Below are positions 7,949 through 35,736 of a stretch of 43,821 nucleotides of DNA, piece after piece. The notes below the pieces were generated by a model, which had not been told where the DNA came from, did not search any database, and was given only the letters and a program-made list of their open reading frames with translations. The translations under genes were made by a program, and so were the position numbers. Source of the stretch: a virus (Duplodnaviria; Caudoviricetes); IMG/VR virus record IMGVR_UViG_3300010398_000006, positions 1-43,821 of that record. One strand, written 5' to 3'. Position 1 is the first letter of the stretch, and every line of letters begins with the position of its first letter.

Positions 7949-8083
7949 GCGCTCGGCCCGGTCAATCTCGTCGGCCAGTTGCTCGTCGGCCGGCCGCAAG
8001 ATCTCCACCGGGCCGCCGCCGTCGTCGCCGGCGATGCGGCGCCGCGCTTCCTCGCGCTCGTCTGGGGTTTCGGGCTCGGTCAC
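7922..8083 (-). CDS. Small acidic protein, 53 aa, coupled to MuF-ART; candidate immunity protein
   Basis: GTG start overlaps the MuF stop (GTGA); VTEPETPDEREEARRRIAGDD...HEQG. Confidence 0.55.
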   Translation of the reverse strand: MTEPETPDEREEARRRIAGDDGGGPVEILRPADEQLADEIDRAERSALDHEQG

Positions 8084-11000
8084 GACGGCAACATTTCCAC
8101 ATCGAGAATCCGTACGGGCCGCCCGTGGCGCTCAACGATGGTTTGCCGGATCACCCGATAGGTCAGCCCCCTATCGAGCAGGATCTCCGACTCCCATGTC
8201 CGGTCCGAGAGCATCGCGACGTGAGTGCCCTTCGGGACAATGATGCGCATGAGCATGTCCGACGCGTAGCTCTTCTCCGCCGTCGACCGGTAGGCGGAGG
8301 TGCTGACGAAGCCGTTGTCCCGCCAGATCATCCCGGTGAAGTCCGACGGCCAGCCCTCGCGCGGGCCGAAGGTCTCCTCGGCCTGCATGAGGCCACGCCA
8401 CACGAGCAGATCCTCATCGACTGCCGAGGCGGCCATGATCTTATCCAGGCCGCGGATCCATTCGTCAGTCTGCGCCCGGTACTGCTCGGCCATCGGGCCG
8501 GTAAAGACGTCCTGGCCGCGAAGCTGCGCATTGATTTGCCGGTACCCGTTGCTCCGGTACGCCTGCAAACCTCGGGAGGCGTCAACGTCCGGCATGACGT
8601 CGGCTCCGCCAGGTCGGACGGCGCTGTAGGGCACAGCCTCGAATGCGGCATCCTCAGTGGCTGCCTTCCCTGCGCGGCGCTCGAACTGGGCCAACGTCGG
8701 CCTGCGCGCCACGCCAGACTGCCGGACCGGCGCCTCGACCGTGCGCACCAGCGGCTTAGTCAACTGCATCGTCGTACCATCGGGCAGGGTCAGCGTCACA
8801 CCCGGCCGGACCACGCTGACCTTCGCCCCGGCCGGGATGTCGACCCCGCCCACCGACTCCATCGCGGCTGGGTCGAACTTGACCGCCTGCCCAACCCGAC
8901 CGGTCACGGCCAGGTCGTACTTCTTCCCGACCCGGGTGATCGCCGCCCGCAACTTCGTCGGATCGGCCGCCGCCCGCTCCAAGGCGGCCAGGTCCTTGGC
9001 GTCCATGACCCCGGTCGCCTGGGCGAACGCGAGACGCTCCTCGAAGACCTCGCGGCCGGCTTTCTTCCCGATCAGCTCGACCATCTCGGCGAGGGTGTCG
9101 CCGACCCGGCCTCGGGACTCGATCAGCTGGTTCCGCTCCCGGTTCGCGGCGCGCAGTTCGCGGCCGGTCAGTTCCCGTGCCGTGGCGGTCTGGGCCCGGA
9201 GCGGCTCGCCCGACTCCTGCACGATCGCCCGCCGGAGCTGGACCTCCTCGCCGCCCGGCCTGCGCAGCGAGTAGCCCGGGCGGACGACGTCCACGGGCGT
9301 CCCGGCCGGGATGCTCGGCCCGACGAGCTCGTGAACCTCGCGGCTGAACGCGACAGGTCCGTTCGCCTCGGTCGTCACCTCGCCGATGCGGACCAGGTTC
9401 GCCTCGGCCGCCATCCGGTCGACCTCGGCCAGCAGCGCCTCGTTGTCTCCGACCAGCGGCAGTAGCCGGGACACGTCGACGCCCAGGCGGTTGCCGGCAC
9501 CCCTGATCCGGTGCGCCATCGCTCGGTCGGAGGCCTGGTTGCCGGCCAGTTCGTGGACCTCGGCGGCCACGTCGGCCACCTTGCGGGCCTCTTCGGCCTC
9601 GGCCACCTGCAGCCGCGCGTAGTGCTCGACGTCGCCTTGGAGCAGGTCGAGCAGCTGCGGCCGGGTCATGCGCGAGTACCCGGTCAGGCCGCGATCGCGG
9701 GCGAGCGCGCGCAGCTCGGGCACCTTCAGCCGGGTCAGGTCTTCGGCCGCCACCGGCGCCGACAGGCCGCCGGCCGCGCCGGCGTCGCCCTGGGAGGCGA
9801 AGACCCGGTCCAGCACCCGGGCGCGGGCGGGGAACAGGTCCCGGAACGTCAGGTCCTGCATCGGCCCGTCCGGGGACAGGCGACCGCGGCCGATCACGTC
9901 GGTGGTCTGGATGCGGTCGATCAGGTGCATCTTGACCGACTCGGCGAAGTCCTCCGCGACCGCGGACTGGCCGTACGGGGTGACCCCGTACGGGAATAGG
10001 GCGGCCGGGTCGTCGATCAGCGTGGGTGCCTTGGACAGGTACAGGCCGCGGCCGGTGGGCTTGAAGTCGTACACGGTGCCGCGGACGCCCGGGCCGCGGG
10101 TGGCGGCCTGCCACGCCGCGCCACTGGAGTTGAGCCCCTCGCGGATCATGGCGGCGTCGACGTTGTGGCCGAACTCGTGCAGCAGGGTGTCGTCGTAGGA
10201 CAGTTGCGGTATCGGGTGCCACAGGGTGGTGTGGCCGCCGCCCGCCATGGCCTGCGAGCGGAAGCCCGGCTGCTGGTAGCGCTGGGCCCAGATCGCGTCG
10301 GCCGGGTTGTCCCCGACCGTGACGGTGTATGTCTTCTGGAACCGGCCCCAGGCGCCGAGTTTGGTCTGGAACTGGCGGAGGTCCTCGACCATGCGCCGGG
10401 CTTCGGCCTCGGTCTTGAACCCGGAGATGGTGCCGCCGCGTTCGACCAGGTATCCGACGCCGTCGACCTTGTACGCCCACCCGTCGCTGATGGTGTAGGT
10501 CGGCGTGCCGGCCTGCAGGATCTGCAGGTCCCGCACCGGGATCGGGTTGTCCAGGCCGGTGTCGGGCAGGCCCTCGGCCCAGTGGCGGGAGTCGCCGGTG
10601 ACCTCGGTCGGCAGCGGCACCACGGGCGGCGGCTCCGGCTCGACCGGCTCGGGCTCGGCTTCGGCCTGGGCGAGGATCTCGTCGGCCTCGCGGGTGGTGA
10701 TCGCGGCCAGGTCCTCGCCGCCGGCGCCCAGGCCTCCTCCCAGCGCGGTGAGGTCGCCGCCGGCGGCCGCGGCGTCCTCACGCGACGTCCACGCCGGGGC
10801 CAGAGAGCACCGGCACAACGGGTGCGCCGGCGGCGCGTCGTCCCCGGTCAGGAACGGCACATCCAGGGGGACGGGGCCCTGGTCTTCGTTGGTGTTGCAG
10901 GGCACGCATACGTGCTGGTCGCCGGCGGTCATCCACTCTTTGGCCTCGACGCCGTTGCGGGCGTACCGCCACAGGGTGGCCGACGACACCGCCCTGGTGG

Positions 11001-11589
11001 TCTCTGTCAACGCCACCCGGGCGGCCCACTTGGGGTCGTTGACGAGGATGCGGATGGCCTTCGCGATCGTCGCCGGGCTGTCGCCGTGCTGGACGCCGCG
11101 GGCCAGAATCGCGGCGAGCTGGTTGAGCTTGTGCCCCTCGATCCCCTTCAGGACGACGCCGGCGTGCTCGAGCAGGGCGTGCAGGCCGTCGCCCATGCCT
11201 TCTGTGCCGAGCAGTTCGAGGGCGGCTTCCTCGTCGCCCGGGGCCCAGTGGGCCCAGTCGACGCCCATGGTGACCGTGGCCACGTCATCCGGTTGGGTGG
11301 CCTTCACTATGAGGCCGTGGTGAGCCAGTAGCGACCTCGAGGACAGGGCGCCGATGAGGTAGCCGTCGGTCCACAACCTCCGCAGGACGGGGGCGAGCCG
11401 GTCAGCGATGGGCAGGTGCCGACCGTCCAACCAGGACCGTGCCGCGTCCTGCGTGGTGATACCGGTAGAGGCGAAGTCAGCGGCCAGCCTGCTCGGCCCG
11501 GAGGCCGGCCCAGTCAAAGCCTGGGACAGCAGAGGCGCCCAGTGATCGGCCACCGCCAGGTCCCGTTCCCAGCCGGGCCAGTGCCGCAC
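8080..11589 (-). CDS. MuF (Mu gpF/SPP1 gp7-like) minor head protein fused to HExxH peptidase-like, Rho-N-like, 2x GrpE-like and ADP-ribosyltransferase domains
   Basis: MuF: ALTETTRA, KEWMTAGD..VCVPC, PPAHPLCRCSL. Peptidase: LLHEFGH...EDFAES. ART: YRQINAQLRG, VWRG, FVSTS, ESEILLDRG. Confidence 0.85.
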   Translation of the reverse strand: MRHWPGWERDLAVADHWAPLLSQALTGPASGPSRLAADFASTGITTQDAARSWLDGRHLPIADRLAPVLRRLWTDGYLIGALSSRSLLAHHGLIVKATQPDDVATVTMGVDWAHWAPGDEEAALELLGTEGMGDGLHALLEHAGVVLKGIEGHKLNQLAAILARGVQHGDSPATIAKAIRILVNDPKWAARVALTETTRAVSSATLWRYARNGVEAKEWMTAGDQHVCVPCNTNEDQGPVPLDVPFLTGDDAPPAHPLCRCSLAPAWTSREDAAAAGGDLTALGGGLGAGGEDLAAITTREADEILAQAEAEPEPVEPEPPPVVPLPTEVTGDSRHWAEGLPDTGLDNPIPVRDLQILQAGTPTYTISDGWAYKVDGVGYLVERGGTISGFKTEAEARRMVEDLRQFQTKLGAWGRFQKTYTVTVGDNPADAIWAQRYQQPGFRSQAMAGGGHTTLWHPIPQLSYDDTLLHEFGHNVDAAMIREGLNSSGAAWQAATRGPGVRGTVYDFKPTGRGLYLSKAPTLIDDPAALFPYGVTPYGQSAVAEDFAESVKMHLIDRIQTTDVIGRGRLSPDGPMQDLTFRDLFPARARVLDRVFASQGDAGAAGGLSAPVAAEDLTRLKVPELRALARDRGLTGYSRMTRPQLLDLLQGDVEHYARLQVAEAEEARKVADVAAEVHELAGNQASDRAMAHRIRGAGNRLGVDVSRLLPLVGDNEALLAEVDRMAAEANLVRIGEVTTEANGPVAFSREVHELVGPSIPAGTPVDVVRPGYSLRRPGGEEVQLRRAIVQESGEPLRAQTATARELTGRELRAANRERNQLIESRGRVGDTLAEMVELIGKKAGREVFEERLAFAQATGVMDAKDLAALERAAADPTKLRAAITRVGKKYDLAVTGRVGQAVKFDPAAMESVGGVDIPAGAKVSVVRPGVTLTLPDGTTMQLTKPLVRTVEAPVRQSGVARRPTLAQFERRAGKAATEDAAFEAVPYSAVRPGGADVMPDVDASRGLQAYRSNGYRQINAQLRGQDVFTGPMAEQYRAQTDEWIRGLDKIMAASAVDEDLLVWRGLMQAEETFGPREGWPSDFTGMIWRDNGFVSTSAYRSTAEKSYASDMLMRIIVPKGTHVAMLSDRTWESEILLDRGLTYRVIRQTIVERHGRPVRILDVEMLPS

Positions 11590-17555: not shown

Positions 17556-18061
17556 CTGGCCTCCTCGGGGAAGGGCATCTCGGTCCACGTCCGCATCTCC
17601 GTCCAGGTCCCGATGTAGGTGACGGGCACCATGGCGAGCCCTTGCGGGGATGCCGGCCAGTTCTCGCCGGGGTGGGGAAATGAGCACACCCGGGGCGCCG
17701 TCGACAGCCTCAGATCGGGTGGTTGGTGTTCGATCCACCAATGGCTGCACTGGCCGAGGACGAGGACGACGCGCGCGCCAGGGGCAGCGACGCTGGGCGT
17801 GACCGGCTCCTCGCATGCGTCCACCTCGACCGGGGTCACCTGGGCGAGCTCGACCAGGGCCAGGGCCAGGGCGGCGCGCAGCTGCCGGGCGGTGGAGCGC
17901 TGCCGTTCCAGGATCTCCACCACTGCGGCCATGGCCGGGATCGCCCCATGCGTCTGGTAGGCGCGGCGGATGCCGGGCAGGTGCTGGTGAAGGTCGTCCA
18001 GGGACCTGGCGTGCAGCTGGTCGGCGTGGGCCACGTCGGCCGCGTTGTGGTCGGTCGTCAT
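17552..18061 (-). CDS. Hypothetical protein
   Basis: Translationally coupled at both ends. Confidence 0.6.
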   Translation of the reverse strand: MTTDHNAADVAHADQLHARSLDDLHQHLPGIRRAYQTHGAIPAMAAVVEILERQRSTARQLRAALALALVELAQVTPVEVDACEEPVTPSVAAPGARVVLVLGQCSHWWIEHQPPDLRLSTAPRVCSFPHPGENWPASPQGLAMVPVTYIGTWTEMRTWTEMPFPEEAS

Positions 18062-26270: not shown

Positions 26271-26455
26271 CCATCACCTCCGAGGCGGACCGTCAACATG
26301 GGGGCGTCGGCGGACTGGATGGCGAAGGCCTGCGCCTCGTCGCTCTCGCACGGGTACCGGCCGCCCATCGAGTCACACGCCTGGGCGGGCACGCCGCCGC
26401 AATACGGGCATGCCGCCGGCGGCGGCTCCAACACAACATCCGGCGGGGTCGTCAT
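26267..26455 (-). CDS. Small Cys-containing hypothetical protein
   Basis: ATGA coupling; CPYCG. Confidence 0.55.
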   Translation of the reverse strand: MTTPPDVVLEPPPAACPYCGGVPAQACDSMGGRYPCESDEAQAFAIQSADAPMLTVRLGGDG

Positions 26456-27069
26456 CGCAGCGCCTCCAAACCGGGGGCGTTGCGGCGGAGCGACCGCAGA
26501 GCGCGGTACAGCATGGCCTTGATCGCCCCCTCCTGCTTGCCCATCAGGCGGGCGGTCTCCTCAGTGGACAGTTGATCGAAGTAACGCAGCTGCACCACCA
26601 TCCGCTGCTCCGCGGACAGCGTCTCCACCGCCGCGCGCACAACCTGGGCCACATGCTGGCGTTCGGCGAGCTCGGCCGGGCCCAGGTCCTCGTCCGGTTC
26701 GCCCTCGGCGTCTGGGTCATCCAGGCGTGTGAGGAGCTCGAGCCGGTACCGGCCGGACTTGAAGTGGTCGGCGACCAGGTTGCGGGCGATGGTGACGAAC
26801 CAGGCCCCGATGTCGCGGCCCTGCCATGTCACGGTGCCGATCCGGCGCAGGCCGCGCAGGAAGACCTCGGCGGTCAGGTCCTCGGCCACCGCGCGGTTGC
26901 GCAGGACGCGGTGGTACACGAACCGGAACACCGTGTCGTAGTACCGGGTGTGCAGCTGCGCGAACGCATCCGCATCACCGGCCTGGGCGGCCTCCACAAT
27001 GGACCACTCAGCCGCGGCCGCCGCCCCCGCAGCGGGGCGGGCGGGCGGCTCGGCCAGAACCGCGGTCAT
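26452..27069 (-). CDS. bldN: ECF sigma factor, sigma-BldN/AdsA-like
   Basis: AQAGDADAF, AEDLTAEVFLRGLRRIGTVTWQGRDIGAWFVTIARNLVADHFKS and MGKQEGAIKA match recalled BldN signatures. Confidence 0.85.
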   Translation of the reverse strand: MTAVLAEPPARPAAGAAAAAEWSIVEAAQAGDADAFAQLHTRYYDTVFRFVYHRVLRNRAVAEDLTAEVFLRGLRRIGTVTWQGRDIGAWFVTIARNLVADHFKSGRYRLELLTRLDDPDAEGEPDEDLGPAELAERQHVAQVVRAAVETLSAEQRMVVQLRYFDQLSTEETARLMGKQEGAIKAMLYRALRSLRRNAPGLEALR

Positions 27070-27422
27070 GCCAGCACCTCCGCCGGCAGTACCGGGTCGT
27101 CCGGGCTCAGGATCGCCGCAGTGACCTTGGCTGCAAGGGCAACATGGCCCGGCGACACGTCCTTGACCCAGCACTCAACAACCAGCCGCCGGCTGCCAAG
27201 GTTGCCGCCGGTCCATTCGTGCAGGACGCGGCTGTCGTGCCGGAACGGCTCGTCGGTCCTCAATTGGAAGTGCTCAGCCCAGCGTGCGGCGTCGCCCATC
27301 GCGGCGAACTCGAGTCGAAGCGTGTGCTCGCGGATGGCCTGGGTCATCGGGGCGGGGAGACCGTCCCGGGCGATCAGGAGCGCGAGCTCGAGGTAGGTCT
27401 GGCGTGGGCTCATGGCGGTCAC
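27066..27422 (-). CDS. Hypothetical protein
   Basis: Coupled at both ends. Confidence 0.6.
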   Translation of the reverse strand: MTAMSPRQTYLELALLIARDGLPAPMTQAIREHTLRLEFAAMGDAARWAEHFQLRTDEPFRHDSRVLHEWTGGNLGSRRLVVECWVKDVSPGHVALAAKVTAAILSPDDPVLPAEVLA

Positions 27423-29114: not shown

Positions 29115-29223
29115 GCCGCCGGGACCTGGCCGGACGCGGAAGTAACCGCTTATCGATTTCATGGATGGAGGGATCTTGCTCACCTGCTGCGTGAACGGCC
29201 CAATCGAACAACGCTCAGCCCTC

Positions 29224-29271
29224 CCCGCCTTACAAGCGGGGGGTCGCTGGTTCGAACCCAGCCGTGCCCAC
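29224..29271 (+). other. attP core: 3' half of tRNA-Val(TAC)
   Basis: Anticodon arm CCCGC-CTTACAA-GCGGG, T-arm GCTGG-TTCGAAC-CCAGC, acceptor 3' strand CGTGCCC-A; no 5' half. Confidence 0.85.
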
Positions 29272-29401
29272 AGAACCAACCTGACCAGCGTAAACAACGG
29301 TGTGGCGGTCCGGAACCCGTACCGAACAGAGCACACGGACCAACCGCTGAGCGCCCTCCGCCCGATGGTCGACACCCTCGTCCTGAGTGGAGGGTGAGCG
29401 G

Positions 29402-30334
29402 ATGCCACGCCAACCCCGTCCCCCGGTGCCCGACCATCTGGTCGCGATGATCGACTCGTTCGAGCTCCACCTGCGCGCCCTACCGTCCAGCGACAAGACC
29501 GTCACCACCTACACCGACGCCGTGCGGTGGCTGGCCGGCAGCTTGCCGCCGGACATCAAGGGCTGGTCCAGGGTCACCCACGTGCACCTGCGCGCGTTCT
29601 TCGCCGAGCTCGGCGGCCGCGGCTACGCCAAGGGGTACGTCAACAACATCGGCCGCGCGCTGCAGGCCTTCGACAAGTGGTACGCGGCCGAGGAGGGCCG
29701 GCCGCGGCTGTTCGGCGAGAAGCTGAAGGTGCCCTCCCCGCCCAAGCCCGGGGACCGGCCACCGCCTGTCGTCGCGGTAGAGCAGCTGGCCACGCTCATC
29801 CGGGACGCGGAGAAGGGCCGGTCGTTCGAGGACCGGCGCGACGCGGCGCTGCTGCGCCTGTTCGCCTGCACCGGATGCCGGCTGGCCGAACTGGCCAACG
29901 TCGCGGTGGACGACCTGGGCGACCTCGCCAAGCGTGAGCTCACCGTGACCGGCAAGGCCGGCAAGGTGCGCACCGTGAAGTACGACCACAAGGCTGCCCG
30001 CGCCCTCGACCGGTACATGCGCTCCCGCGCCGAGCACCGGCACGCCTACCTGAGCGCGCTGTGGATCGGCGTACGCCGGGCGCAGGGCATGACGACCAGC
30101 GGCGTGTATCAGATCGTGGAGCGGCGCGGCCGCCGCCTCGGTCTGCAGCTGCACCCGCACCTGTTCCGGCATACCTTCGTCGACCGGTGGTTGGACGCCG
30201 GCGGGGCGGAGGGGGACCTGATGGAGCTGATGGGGTGGGACTCGCCGCAGATGCTGCGCTGGTATGGCCGGTCGGCGAAGGCTGCCCGGGCCCGCCGTGC
30301 GTATGACCGGGTGGACGTGATGGGAGGCGTCTGA
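29402..30334 (+). CDS. int: Tyrosine integrase
   Basis: TGCRLAE (R), TGKAGK (K), HPHLFRH, MGW, RWYG (Y). Confidence 0.95.
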   Translation: MPRQPRPPVPDHLVAMIDSFELHLRALPSSDKTVTTYTDAVRWLAGSLPPDIKGWSRVTHVHLRAFFAELGGRGYAKGYVNNIGRALQAFDKWYAAEEGRPRLFGEKLKVPSPPKPGDRPPPVVAVEQLATLIRDAEKGRSFEDRRDAALLRLFACTGCRLAELANVAVDDLGDLAKRELTVTGKAGKVRTVKYDHKAARALDRYMRSRAEHRHAYLSALWIGVRRAQGMTTSGVYQIVERRGRRLGLQLHPHLFRHTFVDRWLDAGGAEGDLMELMGWDSPQMLRWYGRSAKAARARRAYDRVDVMGGV

Positions 30335-31032: not shown

Positions 31033-31470
31033 TCATGAAAAGCGGAGCGTCACCTCATCCCCCGCGATCACTTCCATCCGCCCAGATGGATCGGTCAGCA
31101 CGATCATCGGCACACCCTCGTCCAGATCATGCTCGCGCCGCTCCTCCGGCGTCGGCATCTTCACCACCACCGACGACCCACGCGGCACCCTCACCGGCCG
31201 CCGATCAGGCTGCTGGCGCACCCTCGTACCGTACGGCGCCCGCGTGATCAGGAGTCCCTCACCGCGCAGAATCGTCAACGCCGCCCGTACCGAGTCCCTG
31301 CCGATGCCGTACTCCTGCGCCAGGCGGTGCTCGGCCGGCAACCGGTCGCCCGGGCGCAGCTGCCCAGCCGCGATGCGGGCACGCAGCAGGTCCGCGAGCT
31401 GGCGGTGGACGGGCCGGTCCGCGCGCGGGTCGATCACGGTCAGGAAGCGTAGGAACGCCGGTGGCAACAT
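31033..31470 (-). CDS. GntR-family regulator
   Basis: HRQLADLLRARIAAGQLRPGDRLPAE...GTRV. Confidence 0.85.
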   Translation of the reverse strand: MLPPAFLRFLTVIDPRADRPVHRQLADLLRARIAAGQLRPGDRLPAEHRLAQEYGIGRDSVRAALTILRGEGLLITRAPYGTRVRQQPDRRPVRVPRGSSVVVKMPTPEERREHDLDEGVPMIVLTDPSGRMEVIAGDEVTLRFS

Positions 31471-31495
31471 CTGACTGTGGCACTGTTGCTACAGT

Positions 31496-31759
31496 TCACC
31501 CCTGACGCACGAACACCCCGACACCCTGAACCCCTTCGACCAGGCCGCGGTCGTGCAACAATCCCATCGCCCGGACCACGGTCGACCGGCTCGAGGAGTA
31601 CAGCTCGACTAGGCGGGTGACCGAGGGCAGCTTCTGCCCCGGCCGATACCCGTCCTCGCGCGCGGCGATGCGGGCGGCCAGGTCGTCGGCGATGGCCAGA
31701 TACGACATGTGCTCAGGCGGCAAGGCGGCTCTCCCAGGTTGGCTCACCAAGTGAGCCAT
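31496..31759 (-). CDS. Stand-alone GntR wHTH
   Basis: YLAIADDL...PGQKLPS...GVGVFV; GGAGG RBS. Confidence 0.8.
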   Translation of the reverse strand: MAHLVSQPGRAALPPEHMSYLAIADDLAARIAAREDGYRPGQKLPSVTRLVELYSSSRSTVVRAMGLLHDRGLVEGVQGVGVFVRQG

Positions 31760-31787
31760 GGCCACCACCTCCTCCGCAAGACCATCA

Positions 31788-31817
31788 TTGACTATGCTCA
31801 CTATGCTCACATAGTCT
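31788..31817 (+). promoter_or_regulatory. Putative promoter TTGACT-N18-TAGTCT overlapped by tandem ACTATGCTC repeats
   Basis: Repeats at 31791 and 31800; divergent from GntR. Confidence 0.5.
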
Positions 31818-32454: not shown

Positions 32455-32676
32455 TCAGTGCAGGTCGGTGCGGGCGCCTTGGCCTGGCCGGCTCGCCATC
32501 CACCTGTCCAGGGTGGTCTTCTTCCAGACTGGTAGGGCGTGGCCGCCGCTGATCTCTCGGCGGTCGGGTGCTGGGGCTTGGCCTCGTTTGACGTAGGGCC
32601 GCCAGGTGTTGACGTTGACGCCGACGTAGGCGGCGGCAGCTTCGTTGCCGATGAGCTCGTCGACGCGCTGGGCCAT
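32455..32676 (-). CDS. AlpA/MerR-like HTH regulator
   Basis: AAAYVGVNVNTWRPYVKRGQAPAPD...PVWKKTTLDRW...RPGQGARTDL. Confidence 0.75.
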   Translation of the reverse strand: MAQRVDELIGNEAAAAYVGVNVNTWRPYVKRGQAPAPDRREISGGHALPVWKKTTLDRWMASRPGQGARTDLH

Positions 32677-32690
32677 GGGGCGGACGGTAG

Positions 32691-32781
32691 CACCGCGCGT
32701 TGCCCCACCTCGCAACGCGCGGTGTGATGTATCTCACATTGCTTAGTGGAACGCGACACATGGCAACGCGCGTTGTATAGT
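32691..32781. promoter_or_regulatory. Divergent promoter region with CAACGCGCG operators; + strand promoter GCGACA-N17-TATAGT
   Basis: Perfect 13-bp inverted repeat 32691-32703/32712-32724; palindrome CAACGCGCGTTG 32764-32775; -10 at 32776-32781. Confidence 0.7.
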
Positions 32782-32787
32782 TAGAGG

Positions 32788-33595
32788 CACAACACCACAG
32801 GAGAAGCGCCCACACCAAGGCCGACTGAAGACGCAACCGCGTGCAGGGAGCTGGGCCGGGATCGCAGCGGACGCCGAGAGGTGCCAGGGAAAAGCGACCG
32901 GGAGACGTGAAACAGGGGACACCCATCCACCACACAGCAACACCAGCAAGGAACCGCCCCGGCTCGGTCGCTGCCCCCACGGCAGCGCCACGGGGCCAAG
33001 GCTTCGGCAGCAGGTGCAGCCGATCGAAACTTCAACCGTGCGACAGGCACGTATCGGGGCCACGCCCCACGGAGGGAAAGCGGAGCGGGTCCGAGTCCCG
33101 CCGAAGCCACGCAGCAATGCCGGCCTAGCCGCTGAGCCGTGATCAGCGCCCAGGAAGGCCGGGGTAACGGGCCGAACTCGACGCCGGAGGGTGCGGGCGA
33201 GGCAAGGCACGGCGTGGAAGGTGTCTACCGATTCCGGGGCAGCCGAGTCGGAGCGGTATCCGAGATCGCCCGGCCGGGAGCGCATCCCGGCACCTACCCG
33301 AGAGCACTGGCAGTGCAGCAGATCCAGCCGCAGGGACAGCACAACAGAGCCCGCCGGCAGTGACGCAGGGCCGGTCCGATTCCGGCCTCGGGCACACGGC
33401 CTCCTGCTGAGCCGCTAATCAGCAGGCGGGACAAGGCCGATCCAACCGGAGAACGGATCGCCGCTGCCGCCGTCGTGAGTACCAGAGCGGATCCAATGAC
33501 AGGCCACGACCTTGGGAGGGGTAGGGCGTGGCGCCCACCATACCGATCCGGCGACCGCGGGGGCCGCCGTTGAGCGACGGTGGTTACCACCCCAG
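32788..33595 (+). ncRNA. Putative long structured RNA containing tRNA-like elements (33000-33109, 33217-33297, 33296-33394)
   Basis: No credible ORF; acceptor-stem plus T-arm geometry; duplicated two-stem motif; many hairpins. Confidence 0.6.
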
Positions 33596-33603
33596 GAGGG
33601 GTC

Positions 33604-34230
33604 ATGAACCGCAACGCTTCATGGCGACAGATCGTGGCTGTCGCCAACTTCTCGACCGGCGGTGCGACCTTCACCATGGCAGTGGCCATGGGGACGTCGT
33701 ACATGACGCAGGTCGGTCTTTTCCTGGCTCACGCCGTGGGCTGGGCGTCGTGGGCGGTGCCAGCCACCATCGACGTGCTCGCTCTGATGAGCAACCTGGC
33801 CTTGGGGTTGCCCCGCCGAGACGGCTTCGGACGCAAGGGATTGTGGTTCATCCTGATCGTCACGCTGTCGGTCTCGATGGTGCTCAACTTCATGGCCGGC
33901 GAGAACTTCATCGCGAGCACGGCGCATGTGTGGGTGGTCGCCGCGTACCTCGCCGCAGAGTACGTGCGTGGATGGGTGAAGGCCTACCGGGCCGCACTGG
34001 AAGACGAGATCGAGGAGAAGACCACGACGGTGACGGAGCCGGCCATTCCGTCCACTGTGGAGGAAATGGCCACCCTTCCTGAGGCGCCGGTATCCCCGGC
34101 CGTTTCGGTGAAGGTGCCCGAGCCGCCGGCGGCAGCACCGGCCATTTCGGGTAAGCCGCGCGGCGAGTACGGCCCCCGTGGGGACCAGTACTCCGAGCGT
34201 CACGACCGGCGCAGGCGCACCGGGAAATGA
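33604..34230 (+). CDS. Multi-pass membrane protein (DUF2637-like)
   Basis: AGGAGG RBS; SWAVPATIDVLA and SMVLN motifs; 4 hydrophobic segments; basic C-terminal tail. Confidence 0.7.
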   Translation: MNRNASWRQIVAVANFSTGGATFTMAVAMGTSYMTQVGLFLAHAVGWASWAVPATIDVLALMSNLALGLPRRDGFGRKGLWFILIVTLSVSMVLNFMAGENFIASTAHVWVVAAYLAAEYVRGWVKAYRAALEDEIEEKTTTVTEPAIPSTVEEMATLPEAPVSPAVSVKVPEPPAAAPAISGKPRGEYGPRGDQYSERHDRRRRTGK

Positions 34231-34280
34231 CCGACCTGGCACCGAACGGACCAGGTAACCGCTCGGTAGTATGACGAAGG

Positions 34281-34322
34281 AGCCCCGACCCTGTTACCTG
34301 GCAGGGTCGGGGCTTTCTTTTT
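34281..34322 (+). terminator. Intrinsic terminator
   Basis: 13-bp stem AGCCCCGACCCTG/CAGGGTCGGGGCT followed by a T-tract. Confidence 0.85.
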
Positions 34323-34385
34323 GCCCGCGATCAGCGTCTACTGTGGACAATGGAATGGCCGAATGGCCGCGCGCCACGCGACGAC

Positions 34386-34446: not shown

Positions 34447-35736
34447 CTATGCGGCGGCCACCAGCGCCCCGGTGTCGGCCCACCGGTTGTCGCCCCACAC
34501 CATTCCCGGCTGCCTGAGGTCGAAGTCCGTCACCGGCCCGTAGAACCCACACTTGGAGTAGATGGCCTCGCCGAACACGTTGCTGGTGAAGGTGATGTAC
34601 TGCGCGGCGAATGGCTTTTGCGGGTTGTCGCCGCCGTAGAAGCAGAAGCTGCCGATGGTGTTAAGCAGGTTGCCGGTGATCACGTAGTGGTTGATCACGG
34701 CGAAGTCGGACATCAGCCCGATGGCCGAGGAGCAGCCCGCGGCGGGGCCGTCGTTGCACTCGACCGTGTTGTGGTTGATGACCGCGTCGGTGCCGTCGCC
34801 TACATACACGCCGTCTTTGTGGTCGCTGGTGTTGCCGCCCAGGCCGTGGATCCAGGAGTCCTGGATGATGACGTGGTTGCGCGGCGCCGCCCCGTGGCCG
34901 CTGCCGGACAGGTCGACCCGCTGCATGGTGAAGCCGTCGTCCTCGATCCCGACCGTGGTGCCGGAGCCGACGGAGGGGCAGCCGCAGGCAATGGTGGAGT
35001 CGCGGATGACCAGCGAGTTGAGGCCGGCGTTCTGCTTCGAAGTGACCGGGCCCTTGATCAGGGAGCGGGTGATGACCACCCCGGTCGCCTTGACCACCAC
35101 GGCACTGTTGAACTGGCACGCGTCGTAAGTGCCGGGCATGGTGATGGTGGTCGGGCAAGTGTGCAGCTGCACGCCGGCGGGGATGCCTGTGTTGCCGGGC
35201 CCGGGCCAGCAGCCGCCCCACGGGTCAGCGGCCCCGGGGAGGTTCCTCCCGGGCATCGGGCACGTGGCCGGGGAGGGACTTGGGCTGGGTGTTGGTGATG
35301 GACTCGGTGATGGGCTTGGAGTAGGCGTCGGGCTCGGCGACGGGGATGGGCTGGGGCTCGGCGAGGGCGACGGCGAGGGCGACGGCGATGGTGAAGGACT
35401 TGGGCTGGGCGATGGGCTAGGGCTCGGTGACGGCGAAGGAGACGGACTCGGAGAGGGAGACGGCGACGGGCTGGGTGATGGCGACGGCGCGGTGAGCGCG
35501 CTCACGCAGGTGTTCAGCCACGCCAGATCCTCCGGCGTCCGCGCGTCGTACCCCAGCGCCTGGCGGCACTCGTCGACGACCGACAGCGGCCCCGGGTCGG
35601 CCGCGGGCCCTGGTGCCGGGCGCATGGCCCCATGTACAACCAGAGCCGCCCCGGTCGTGGCGACCAGGGCGGCGATGGCGGCGGCGAATAGCCGCCTGGG
35701 TCTACTCATTCTCCGTACGTGGTTGCCCTCGTACAC
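34447..35736 (-). CDS. Secreted/surface protein: signal or TM anchor, (PS)n linker, beta-helix-like domain
   Basis: Hydrophobic N-terminus; long PS repeat; IQDSWIH...HKDG...NHNTV beta-helix pattern. Confidence 0.75.
   Translation of the reverse strand: MYEGNHVRRMSRPRRLFAAAIAALVATTGAALVVHGAMRPAPGPAADPGPLSVVDECRQALGYDARTPEDLAWLNTCVSALTAPSPSPSPSPSPSPSPSPSPSPSPSPSPSPSPSPSPSPSPSPSPSPSPSPSPSPTPTPSPSPSPSPTPSPSPSPATCPMPGRNLPGAADPWGGCWPGPGNTGIPAGVQLHTCPTTITMPGTYDACQFNSAVVVKATGVVITRSLIKGPVTSKQNAGLNSLVIRDSTIACGCPSVGSGTTVGIEDDGFTMQRVDLSGSGHGAAPRNHVIIQDSWIHGLGGNTSDHKDGVYVGDGTDAVINHNTVECNDGPAAGCSSAIGLMSDFAVINHYVITGNLLNTIGSFCFYGGDNPQKPFAAQYITFTSNVFGEAIYSKCGFYGPVTDFDLRQPGMVWGDNRWADTGALVAAA
35271..35487 (-). 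repeat. Codon-diversified Pro-Ser dipeptide repeat
   Basis: Seen in translation; the DNA is an imperfect 6-bp repeat. Confidence 0.85.

What the first reader, a model, noticed from the sequence alone, without database searches (positions are those of the whole stretch)
32788..33600. About 800-nt non-coding transcript carrying an array of degenerate tRNA-like folds
Seen: no credible ORF lies between the promoter (-10 at 32776) and the gene at 33604. Element 1: GGCTTCG (33000-06) pairs with CGAAGCC (33102-08), which directly follows the T-arm GCGGG-TCCGAGT-CCCGC and precedes a discriminator-like A. Element 2: CCCGAG (33297-302) pairs with CTCGGG after GCCGG-TCCGATT-CCGGC (33370-86). Element 3 is weaker: GAAGGTG (33217-23) pairs 6/7 with CACCTAC after CCGGG-AGCGCAT-CCCGG. 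Elements 1 and 2 also share a D-arm-like GCA..TGC-AGCnGATC. None has a normal anticodon arm or an encoded CCA. Known: a stacked acceptor stem plus T-arm is what RNase P and RNase Z recognise, as in tmRNA, bacterial Y RNA and mascRNA. Inference: a polycistronic RNA cut into tRNA mimics, either as decoys for tRNA-targeting defences or as processing signals that release intervening RNAs. I recognise no described family.
Basis: partly seen in the sequence, partly recalled or inferred. Interest (0 to 1): 0.88.

Follow-up and report, generated by a model that had tools for sequence, protein, structure and literature searches.

The report
tRNA-like punctuation in actinophage operons
A soil phage and its relatives place conserved tRNA-shaped folds without an anticodon in front of the genes and RNA domains of one accessory operon, likely as cut sites for the host's tRNA-processing enzyme RNase P that would split the long transcript into separately protected pieces.

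Summary
Two of the three folds are real. Elements 1 (33000-33109) and 2 (33296-33394) have an acceptor stem stacked on a T-arm, then A and C. A descriptor finds 11 such folds in 13.5 kb of 18 related operons, against 0.03 in shuffles and 1 in 173 kb of flanks. Relatives keep the stems through compensatory changes. Element 3 is not a tRNA mimic; it is the last hairpin of a separate conserved RNA domain. The region is not a stand-alone RNA but the non-coding front of an operon: promoter with operators, divergent HTH gene, shuffled RNA modules, DUF2637 gene, terminator. In relatives, 12 of 20 elements sit directly before a ribosome-binding site and gene. G at +1 (19 of 20) and C at position 74 (20 of 20) suit RNase P and disfavour RNase Z. 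Best reading (0.5): host RNase P cuts at each element and leaves it as a folded 5' cap on the downstream message or RNA. No expression or cleavage data exist. No Rfam or ARAGORN match; closest analogues are plant mitochondrial t-elements and phage C4/CI RNAs.

The parts
32455..32679 (-). Divergent small HTH gene (AlpA/excisionase-like), likely regulator of the operon
   Evidence: Pfam HTH_17 weak, phrog_597 E 4e-16; same gene faces the same operon in L046, L082, L089
32691..32775 (.). Three 12-bp palindromic operator-like sites (32691, 32713, 32764); the third lies in the promoter spacer
   Evidence: 2-3 copies in 9 of 10 loci that carry this HTH, none in 3 of 3 loci with another regulator
32753..32781 (+). 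Sigma-70-type promoter (GCGACA-17-TATAGT)
   Evidence: 1 found, 0.1 in shuffles; TTGACN-type promoters at the same place in relatives
32788..32955 (+). Leader module, shared in blocks with L088
   Evidence: comparison by eye
32956..32997 (+). Module 0: structured domain ending GGGGCCA directly before element 1; divergent copy
   Evidence: same position in 11 relatives
33000..33109 (+). tRNA-like element 1: acceptor stem, T-arm, A73, then C; no anticodon loop
   Evidence: two compensatory T-stem pairs and a TTCGA loop in L044
33110..33295 (+).
   Evidence: homologues in L044, L065, L088, L089, L159, L171 and looser ones in L083, L086, L087; the window copy has lost about 10 nt of the central hairpin
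33296..33394 (+). tRNA-like element 2 with D-arm-like hairpin holding GG; first pair mismatched
   Evidence: a like element follows module B in L088, L089, L171
33400..33429 (+). Hairpin repeating the GCTGAGCC...ATCAGC hairpin of module B
33553..33603 (+). Pre-RBS module; the Shine-Dalgarno (33594-33601) is predicted to sit in a 5-bp hairpin
   Evidence: similar module in L044, L065, L087, L089, L111
33604..34230 (+). DUF2637 protein, four predicted helices plus disordered tail
   Evidence: Pfam E 5e-4, homologues carry PF10935, atlas, model; no fold match
34279..34325 (+). Intrinsic terminator closing the operon

Best explanation
The region is the non-coding front of a phage accessory operon in which two tRNA-shaped folds likely act as cut sites for host RNase P, so that each downstream piece would start with a folded, protective 5' end. 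Shown: promoter-like and operator-like sites, absence of coding signal, acceptor/T-arm folds kept by compensatory changes, their position in front of genes or RNA domains, and modular shuffling among phages. Inferred: a strong early promoter is shut by the divergent HTH protein; RNase P cuts before G+1 using the T-loop, the 11-13 bp stack and the A73/C74 contact; C74 keeps RNase Z from cutting the fold off, so the fold stays as a cap against 5'-end-dependent decay. In this phage the products would be element 1 + module B (about 295 nt, a small RNA of untested role) and element 2 + DUF2637 message.
For: 11 descriptor hits in 9 of 18 operon regions (13,483 nt), 0 on the reverse strand, shuffles mean 0.03; 1 hit in 173,452 nt of flanks; without the AC rule 14 T-hairpins against 10 in the flanks. 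Covariation: 7 of 11 pairs in the 40-nt mini form (3 sequences); acceptor 100% paired and 7 of 14 pairs with double changes in 8 module-A copies, 0 of 500 shuffles; window against L044 3 of 16 pairs. Of 20 elements in 15 loci: G+1 19, A73 18, C74 20; 12 precede an RBS and ORF, 4 module B, 3 module C, 1 is window element 2. Interiors vary from an 11-nt linker to over 90 nt while the acceptor/T frame stays. RNase P pairs with C74 (PMC1874595); C74 is the strongest RNase Z antideterminant (PMC3161902); t-elements do this job in plant mitochondria (PMC1920247). The cultured relative phiAsp2 has a repeated promoter before each small gene at the same place instead.
Against: No RNA data. 3 of 18 operons (L052, L084, L159) have no element, and L159 has module B without one. 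6 of 20 T-loops depart from the T-loop pattern. Predicted acceptor pairing in context is below 0.1 for 7 of 18 correctly placed elements. Window element 2 starts with a mismatch. Module A carries a conserved interior loop motif (CGACCAC-like) and GTAAG that a pure cut site would not need. A73/C74 was a rule of the descriptor, and homologous copies are not independent. The two-sequence covariation test alone is not significant (75 of 500).
Confidence: 0.5

Rival explanations
1. The processed RNAs act in trans or in cis by base pairing, like P1 C4 or P4 CI RNA, to hold down DUF2637 or other phage genes; the tRNA-like frame only matures and displays a seed loop.
For: Conserved interior loop motif in module A and in L171 element 2; membrane-protein gene with a hairpin-occluded Shine-Dalgarno at the operon end; divergent AlpA-like HTH; C4 and CI are RNase P substrates (PMC5499578).
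Against: Long-range complements of 8 nt or more are no more frequent than in shuffles in the window (8 against 7.9) and show no shared pattern across 18 operons; best match elsewhere in the phage is 14 nt exact; no Rfam C4 hit; window element 1 lacks the motif. Host targets were not searched.
Confidence: 0.17
2. The folds are released, given CCA and serve as decoys for host toxins or defences that bind the acceptor end or elbow of tRNA.
For: Several copies per strong promoter; 4 of 20 encode ACCA; the 40-nt mini form is a bare acceptor/T domain; relatives carry small, mostly acidic orphan ORFs of the kind seen in anti-defence loci (the likeness is recalled knowledge).
Against: No anticodon loop, so anticodon nucleases are unlikely targets; C74 disfavours RNase Z release; 12 of 20 sit a short way before an RBS, a cis position; acceptor sequences do not copy one tRNA identity.
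Confidence: 0.15
3. The folds are never cut; they act as roadblocks to exonucleases, folding insulators or antitermination and protein-binding scaffolds in the leader.
For: Degenerate T-loops in 6 of 20; operons without elements exist; other conserved non-tRNA modules (0, B, C, pre-RBS) share the operon.
Against: G+1, 11-13 bp stack, T-loop and A73/C74 are kept together, which fits an enzyme that measures tRNA shape.
Confidence: 0.1
4. They are decaying tRNA genes or attachment-site remnants that now only serve as recombination joints between modules, or chance folds in GC-rich DNA.
For: L085's element keeps a near-canonical tRNA D-arm; modules are visibly shuffled among phages; folding z-scores are modest.
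Against: Compensatory changes, strand-specific enrichment and fixed position argue for selection on the + strand RNA fold; ARAGORN calls none.
Confidence: 0.08

Closest known systems
t-elements of plant mitochondria (PMC1920247, passages read)
   Same: Non-canonical tRNA-like folds with a conserved T-arm beside genes, acting as cis signals for RNase P and RNase Z in long transcripts
   Different: Here bacterial phage, several shuffled sub-types, conserved C74 that should block RNase Z; ends not mapped
C4 antisense RNA of P1/P7 and CI RNA of P4 (seen only as cited in PMC5499578 and PMC4919922)
   Same: Phage RNA matured by host RNase P from a leader that runs into small genes
   Different: C4 and CI lack a T-loop equivalent; no Rfam match; no paired targets found; several elements per operon
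Polycistrons of irregular tRNAs and allo-tRNAs (Mukai et al., PMC5389517, passages read)
   Same: Tandem irregular tRNA-like sequences, possible 8/4 acceptor/T split
   Different: Those have anticodons and come from Acidobacteria near toxin-antitoxin genes; these lack an anticodon loop and head phage genes
mascRNA/menRNA, tmRNA tRNA-like domain, bacterial Y RNA (PMC4919922 passages for the first two; Y RNA recalled)
   Same: Acceptor plus T-arm without anticodon arm; the 40-nt mini form has a stemless D-region
   Different: No tag frame, no Rfam match, no Ro60 hit among 24 ORFs scanned; cargo stays on the 3' side in the best model

Membership tests
tRNA gene | Cloverleaf with 7-nt anticodon loop, called by ARAGORN or Rfam tRNA | tested here: not met
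   ARAGORN: only tRNA-Val at 29197 in the window; none at an element in 35 loci; Rfam none
tRNA gene | Acceptor stem stacked on T-arm, T-loop, discriminator | tested here: met
   elements 1 and 2; loops are TCCGA, not TTCGA
allo-tRNA / irregular tRNA polycistrons | 12-bp acceptor branch in 8/4 or 9/3 form | tested here: inconclusive
   element 1 can be drawn 8/4 or 7/5; relatives show 8/4, 7/5 and 5/6
allo-tRNA / irregular tRNA polycistrons | Anticodon arm with anticodon and long variable arm | tested here: not met
   interiors have 8-24 nt loops or no arm
C4 / CI antisense RNA | Match to the Rfam family | tested here: not met
C4 / CI antisense RNA | Loops complementary to repeated targets in the same transcript (feature recalled) | tested here: not met
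   no excess, no shared pattern; weak test for short seeds
C4 / CI antisense RNA | Matured by RNase P | not testable with these tools
   needs RNA ends or in vitro cleavage
t-element (functional class) | Conserved T-arm fold without normal cloverleaf next to a gene | tested here: met
t-element (functional class) | Element ends coincide with mapped transcript ends | not testable with these tools
   no RNA run to lay
tmRNA | tRNA-like domain plus tag reading frame | tested here: not met
   ARAGORN, Rfam
Bacterial Y RNA | Rfam match and nearby Ro60 gene (feature recalled) | tested here: not met
   Rfam none; no TROVE family in 24 window ORFs scanned, not all ORFs
Theta / HDV-like ribozyme behind a tRNA | Nested double pseudoknot core (feature recalled) | tested here: not met
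   crude descriptor 0 of 18 operons; Rfam none

The most novel reading that the evidence does not exclude
A class of phage operons built from interchangeable RNA parts: tRNA-shaped heads turn one burst transcript, by way of host RNase P, into separately capped messages and small RNAs, and the released RNAs (module B, the loop-bearing module A, CCA-ended minis) are themselves effectors against host defence, so that in this phage the operon has become almost RNA-only.
Probability: 0.25. Interest if true: 0.88.

Novelty: new variant of a known kind. Interest (0 to 1): 0.68.

Why it matters
tRNA punctuation is known from mitochondria and a few long RNAs, and single phage RNAs are known RNase P substrates. 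A modular set of anticodon-less tRNA heads used again and again to open genes in a phage operon would extend that logic to bacteria and give a portable RNA cap for actinomycetes. It also shows a group of structured RNAs that ARAGORN and Rfam miss, next to orphan small proteins that are candidates for early host-interaction functions. The predicted ends are exact, so the claim is cheap to test.

Tried and rejected
Rfam on the region (best E about 1) and on 15 homologous loci: nothing. blastn of the region or of L046 against cultured phages: chance or tRNA T-arm hits only; L088 against plasmids: none; DUF2637 against cultured phages: none. Pattern scans: 42 of 42 loci chance; 1 real tRNA-Ser plus L046 itself; 3 new homologues of 32; 2 new of 63. 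Genome searches: 1 true homologue (L116) among 401 genomes of the family of G001, judged from the alignment span and 8 loci read of 30 fetched; exact module-0 pattern 0 of 401 at order level. Loci left out of the 18: L045 (short leader, no element), L090-L100 (distant DUF2637, no credible element) and L101-L105, L108, L109 (HTH relatives, none), so the elements are not a fixed partner of either gene. A covariance model of modules 0+A finds L087, L171 element 2 and L046 but window element 1 only at 7.8 bits, below a chance hit at 8.5: element 1 shares the frame and position, its interior is not shown to be homologous. RNAalifold on the MAFFT alignment of module A found only the T-stem. No element beside the HTH in phiAsp2, Catfish or Banquo. 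DUF2637 fold search: no match. Small ORFs: 0 of 14 with a family above cut-off. No RNA holder listed. Cluster members could not be listed. Earlier scan findings: none.

Full report
Setting. The window is a whole 43.8-kb virus record with integrase, tRNA-Val, portal, tail tube, tape measure and a lysin-like gene: a temperate phage of about 70% GC. A relative lies in a Micromonosporaceae MAG and another in a MAG labelled Chloroflexota; the best cultured match of the HTH gene is Actinoplanes phage phiAsp2. The host is therefore inferred to be an actinomycete of that family.

Observation. Elements 1 and 2 are in the sequence as described. Energy z-scores are modest. A descriptor for T-hairpin, 11-13 bp acceptor/T stack and AC gives 2 hits in the 822-nt region and 2 or more in 0 of 2000 shuffles; the whole window has five hits: these two, the true tRNA-Val and two background hits. 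The descriptor was written after seeing the elements, so the homologues are the fairer test. The region has no SD-led ATG ORF of 25 aa or more and no codon bias. The promoter is confirmed and the first U-tailed terminator follows DUF2637, so the RNA is the leader of a transcript of about 1.5 kb; a U-less stop at the 33400-29 hairpin is not excluded.

Homologues. Using DUF2637, the HTH and short motifs I gathered 17 related operons, chosen because they share modules; the loci left out are listed under Tried and rejected. They share one plan: a divergent small DNA-binding gene, a promoter, a mosaic of conserved non-coding modules with zero to several small ORFs, and usually DUF2637. In these 18 regions the descriptor finds 11 hits in 9 loci, none on the reverse strand, 0.03 in shuffles and 1 in 173 kb of flanking DNA. 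Without the AC rule there are 14 T-hairpins in 13.5 kb against 10 in 173 kb. Adding copies found by their upstream anchor gives 20 elements in 15 of 18 loci.

Covariation. Window against L044: acceptor identical, two compensatory pairs in the T-stem, one in an inner hairpin, and a canonical TTCGA loop in L044; with two sequences this is not significant alone. Eight module-A copies: acceptor 100% paired, 7 of 14 pairs with double changes, 0 of 500 shuffles as high (related sequences can beat this control). Three 40-nt mini elements: 7 of 11 pairs compensatory, all cells paired. Element 3 fails: its proposed acceptor is 60% paired with no double change, while its hairpin is fully paired; it is the end of module B, a domain of about 190 nt with its own covarying hairpins. 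A model of modules 0+A recognises L171's element 2 and L046's first element, which links the two positions into one family, but scores window element 1 at noise level.

Pattern. G at +1 in 19 of 20 (the exception is window element 2), A73 in 18, C74 in 20, ACCA in 4. For L055 and L065 my coordinates overshot by one base; the corrected register is. T-loops: TTCGA 8, TCCGA 3, TGCRA 3, TGCAGAT 3, degenerate 3. Twelve elements are followed within about 55 nt by an RBS and start codon, four by module B, three by module C, and window element 2 by hairpins and DUF2637. Interiors range from an 11-nt linker to more than 90 nt and never form a normal anticodon arm. Three 12-bp palindromes flank and overlap the promoter and travel with this HTH family. 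The passenger ORFs of relatives are 43-89 aa, mostly acidic, with coding-type GC3 and no family.

Mechanism. Shown: the anatomy above. From papers: RNase P pairs with C74 and can cut CCA-less precursors, and RNase Z is blocked by CCA (PMC1874595, passages), with C74 having the largest effect (PMC3161902, passages); t-elements set mRNA ends in plant mitochondria (PMC1920247, passages). Inferred: RNase P cuts before each G+1, RNase Z is held off, and the fold remains as a cap on its cargo. That 5'-paired ends resist decay in actinomycetes is recalled knowledge. phiAsp2 has repeated promoters before each small gene at the same place, which fits a need to express each gene strongly and separately. 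Against this model: no RNA data, three operons without elements, degenerate T-loops, low predicted pairing for some copies, and conserved interior motifs that suggest an added function. A C4-like antisense role found no support in complementarity tests, though these are weak for short seeds and host targets were not searched. A decoy role stays open, chiefly for the minis.

Known or new. No Rfam or ARAGORN match. Ten full-text searches of an open-access library returned no description of this family; subscription papers are not covered. Mukai et al. (PMC5389517, passages) and a review (PMC7609411, passages) describe irregular tRNA polycistrons with anticodons in Acidobacteria. C4 and CI were seen only through citing passages (PMC4919922; PMC5499578), which state that they lack a T-loop. 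Fremin et al. (PMC10690425, passages) list 10,006 candidate viral RNAs; searches of the readable supplements for four sample ids, DUF2637 and three motifs found nothing, but two archives and three large files could not be read, so single modules may be in that catalogue. Other papers in the listings were seen as title and abstract start only.

Verdict. A real, selected RNA architecture, not a member of a curated family, working most likely like t-elements. New variant of a known kind; interest 0.68.

Noticed in passing
window 8080-11589 (-): Phage Mu F-like head protein fused to a C-terminal ADP-ribosyltransferase domain and a Rho_N domain.
   Followed up: no
window 29197-29269 (+), 29387-30334 (+): tRNA-Val(TAC) directly before a tyrosine integrase; likely the attachment site.
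   Followed up: no
window 31033-31810 (-): Two tandem GntR-family regulator genes.
   Followed up: no
window 26452-27174 (-): Phage-encoded ECF sigma factor.
   Followed up: no
window 34447-35736 (-): Protein with a long Ser-Pro repeat and a likely secreted beta-rich domain, no Pfam hit, beside a staphylococcal-nuclease-family gene.
   Followed up: no
L044:1620-1645, L046:918-945, L052, L055, L065, L089; also L063, L069, L071: Module C, a bulged hairpin (GCGTTGAGC...GCTCCGC) before DUF2637 in several relatives; similar motifs follow stop codons in three other GC-rich phage contigs.
   Followed up: partly
alignment A10 columns 1-60 and module B 3' part: Module 0 and the 3' half of module B share CCGAG...CGACA.C...CCGG and both directly precede a tRNA-like element, so they may be paralogues. 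Module 0 has recurring A.C oppositions.
   Followed up: partly
L209:1850-2960 (phiAsp2): The same promoter sequence is repeated three times, once before each small gene opposite the HTH gene.
   Followed up: no
window 32854-32866 and 33272-33284: A 13-nt direct repeat lets the leader pair with the 3' strand of module B's last hairpin; also true in L088, not in L044.
   Followed up: partly
window 17653-17745 (+): One background descriptor hit with a TTCGA loop; probably chance.
   Followed up: partly
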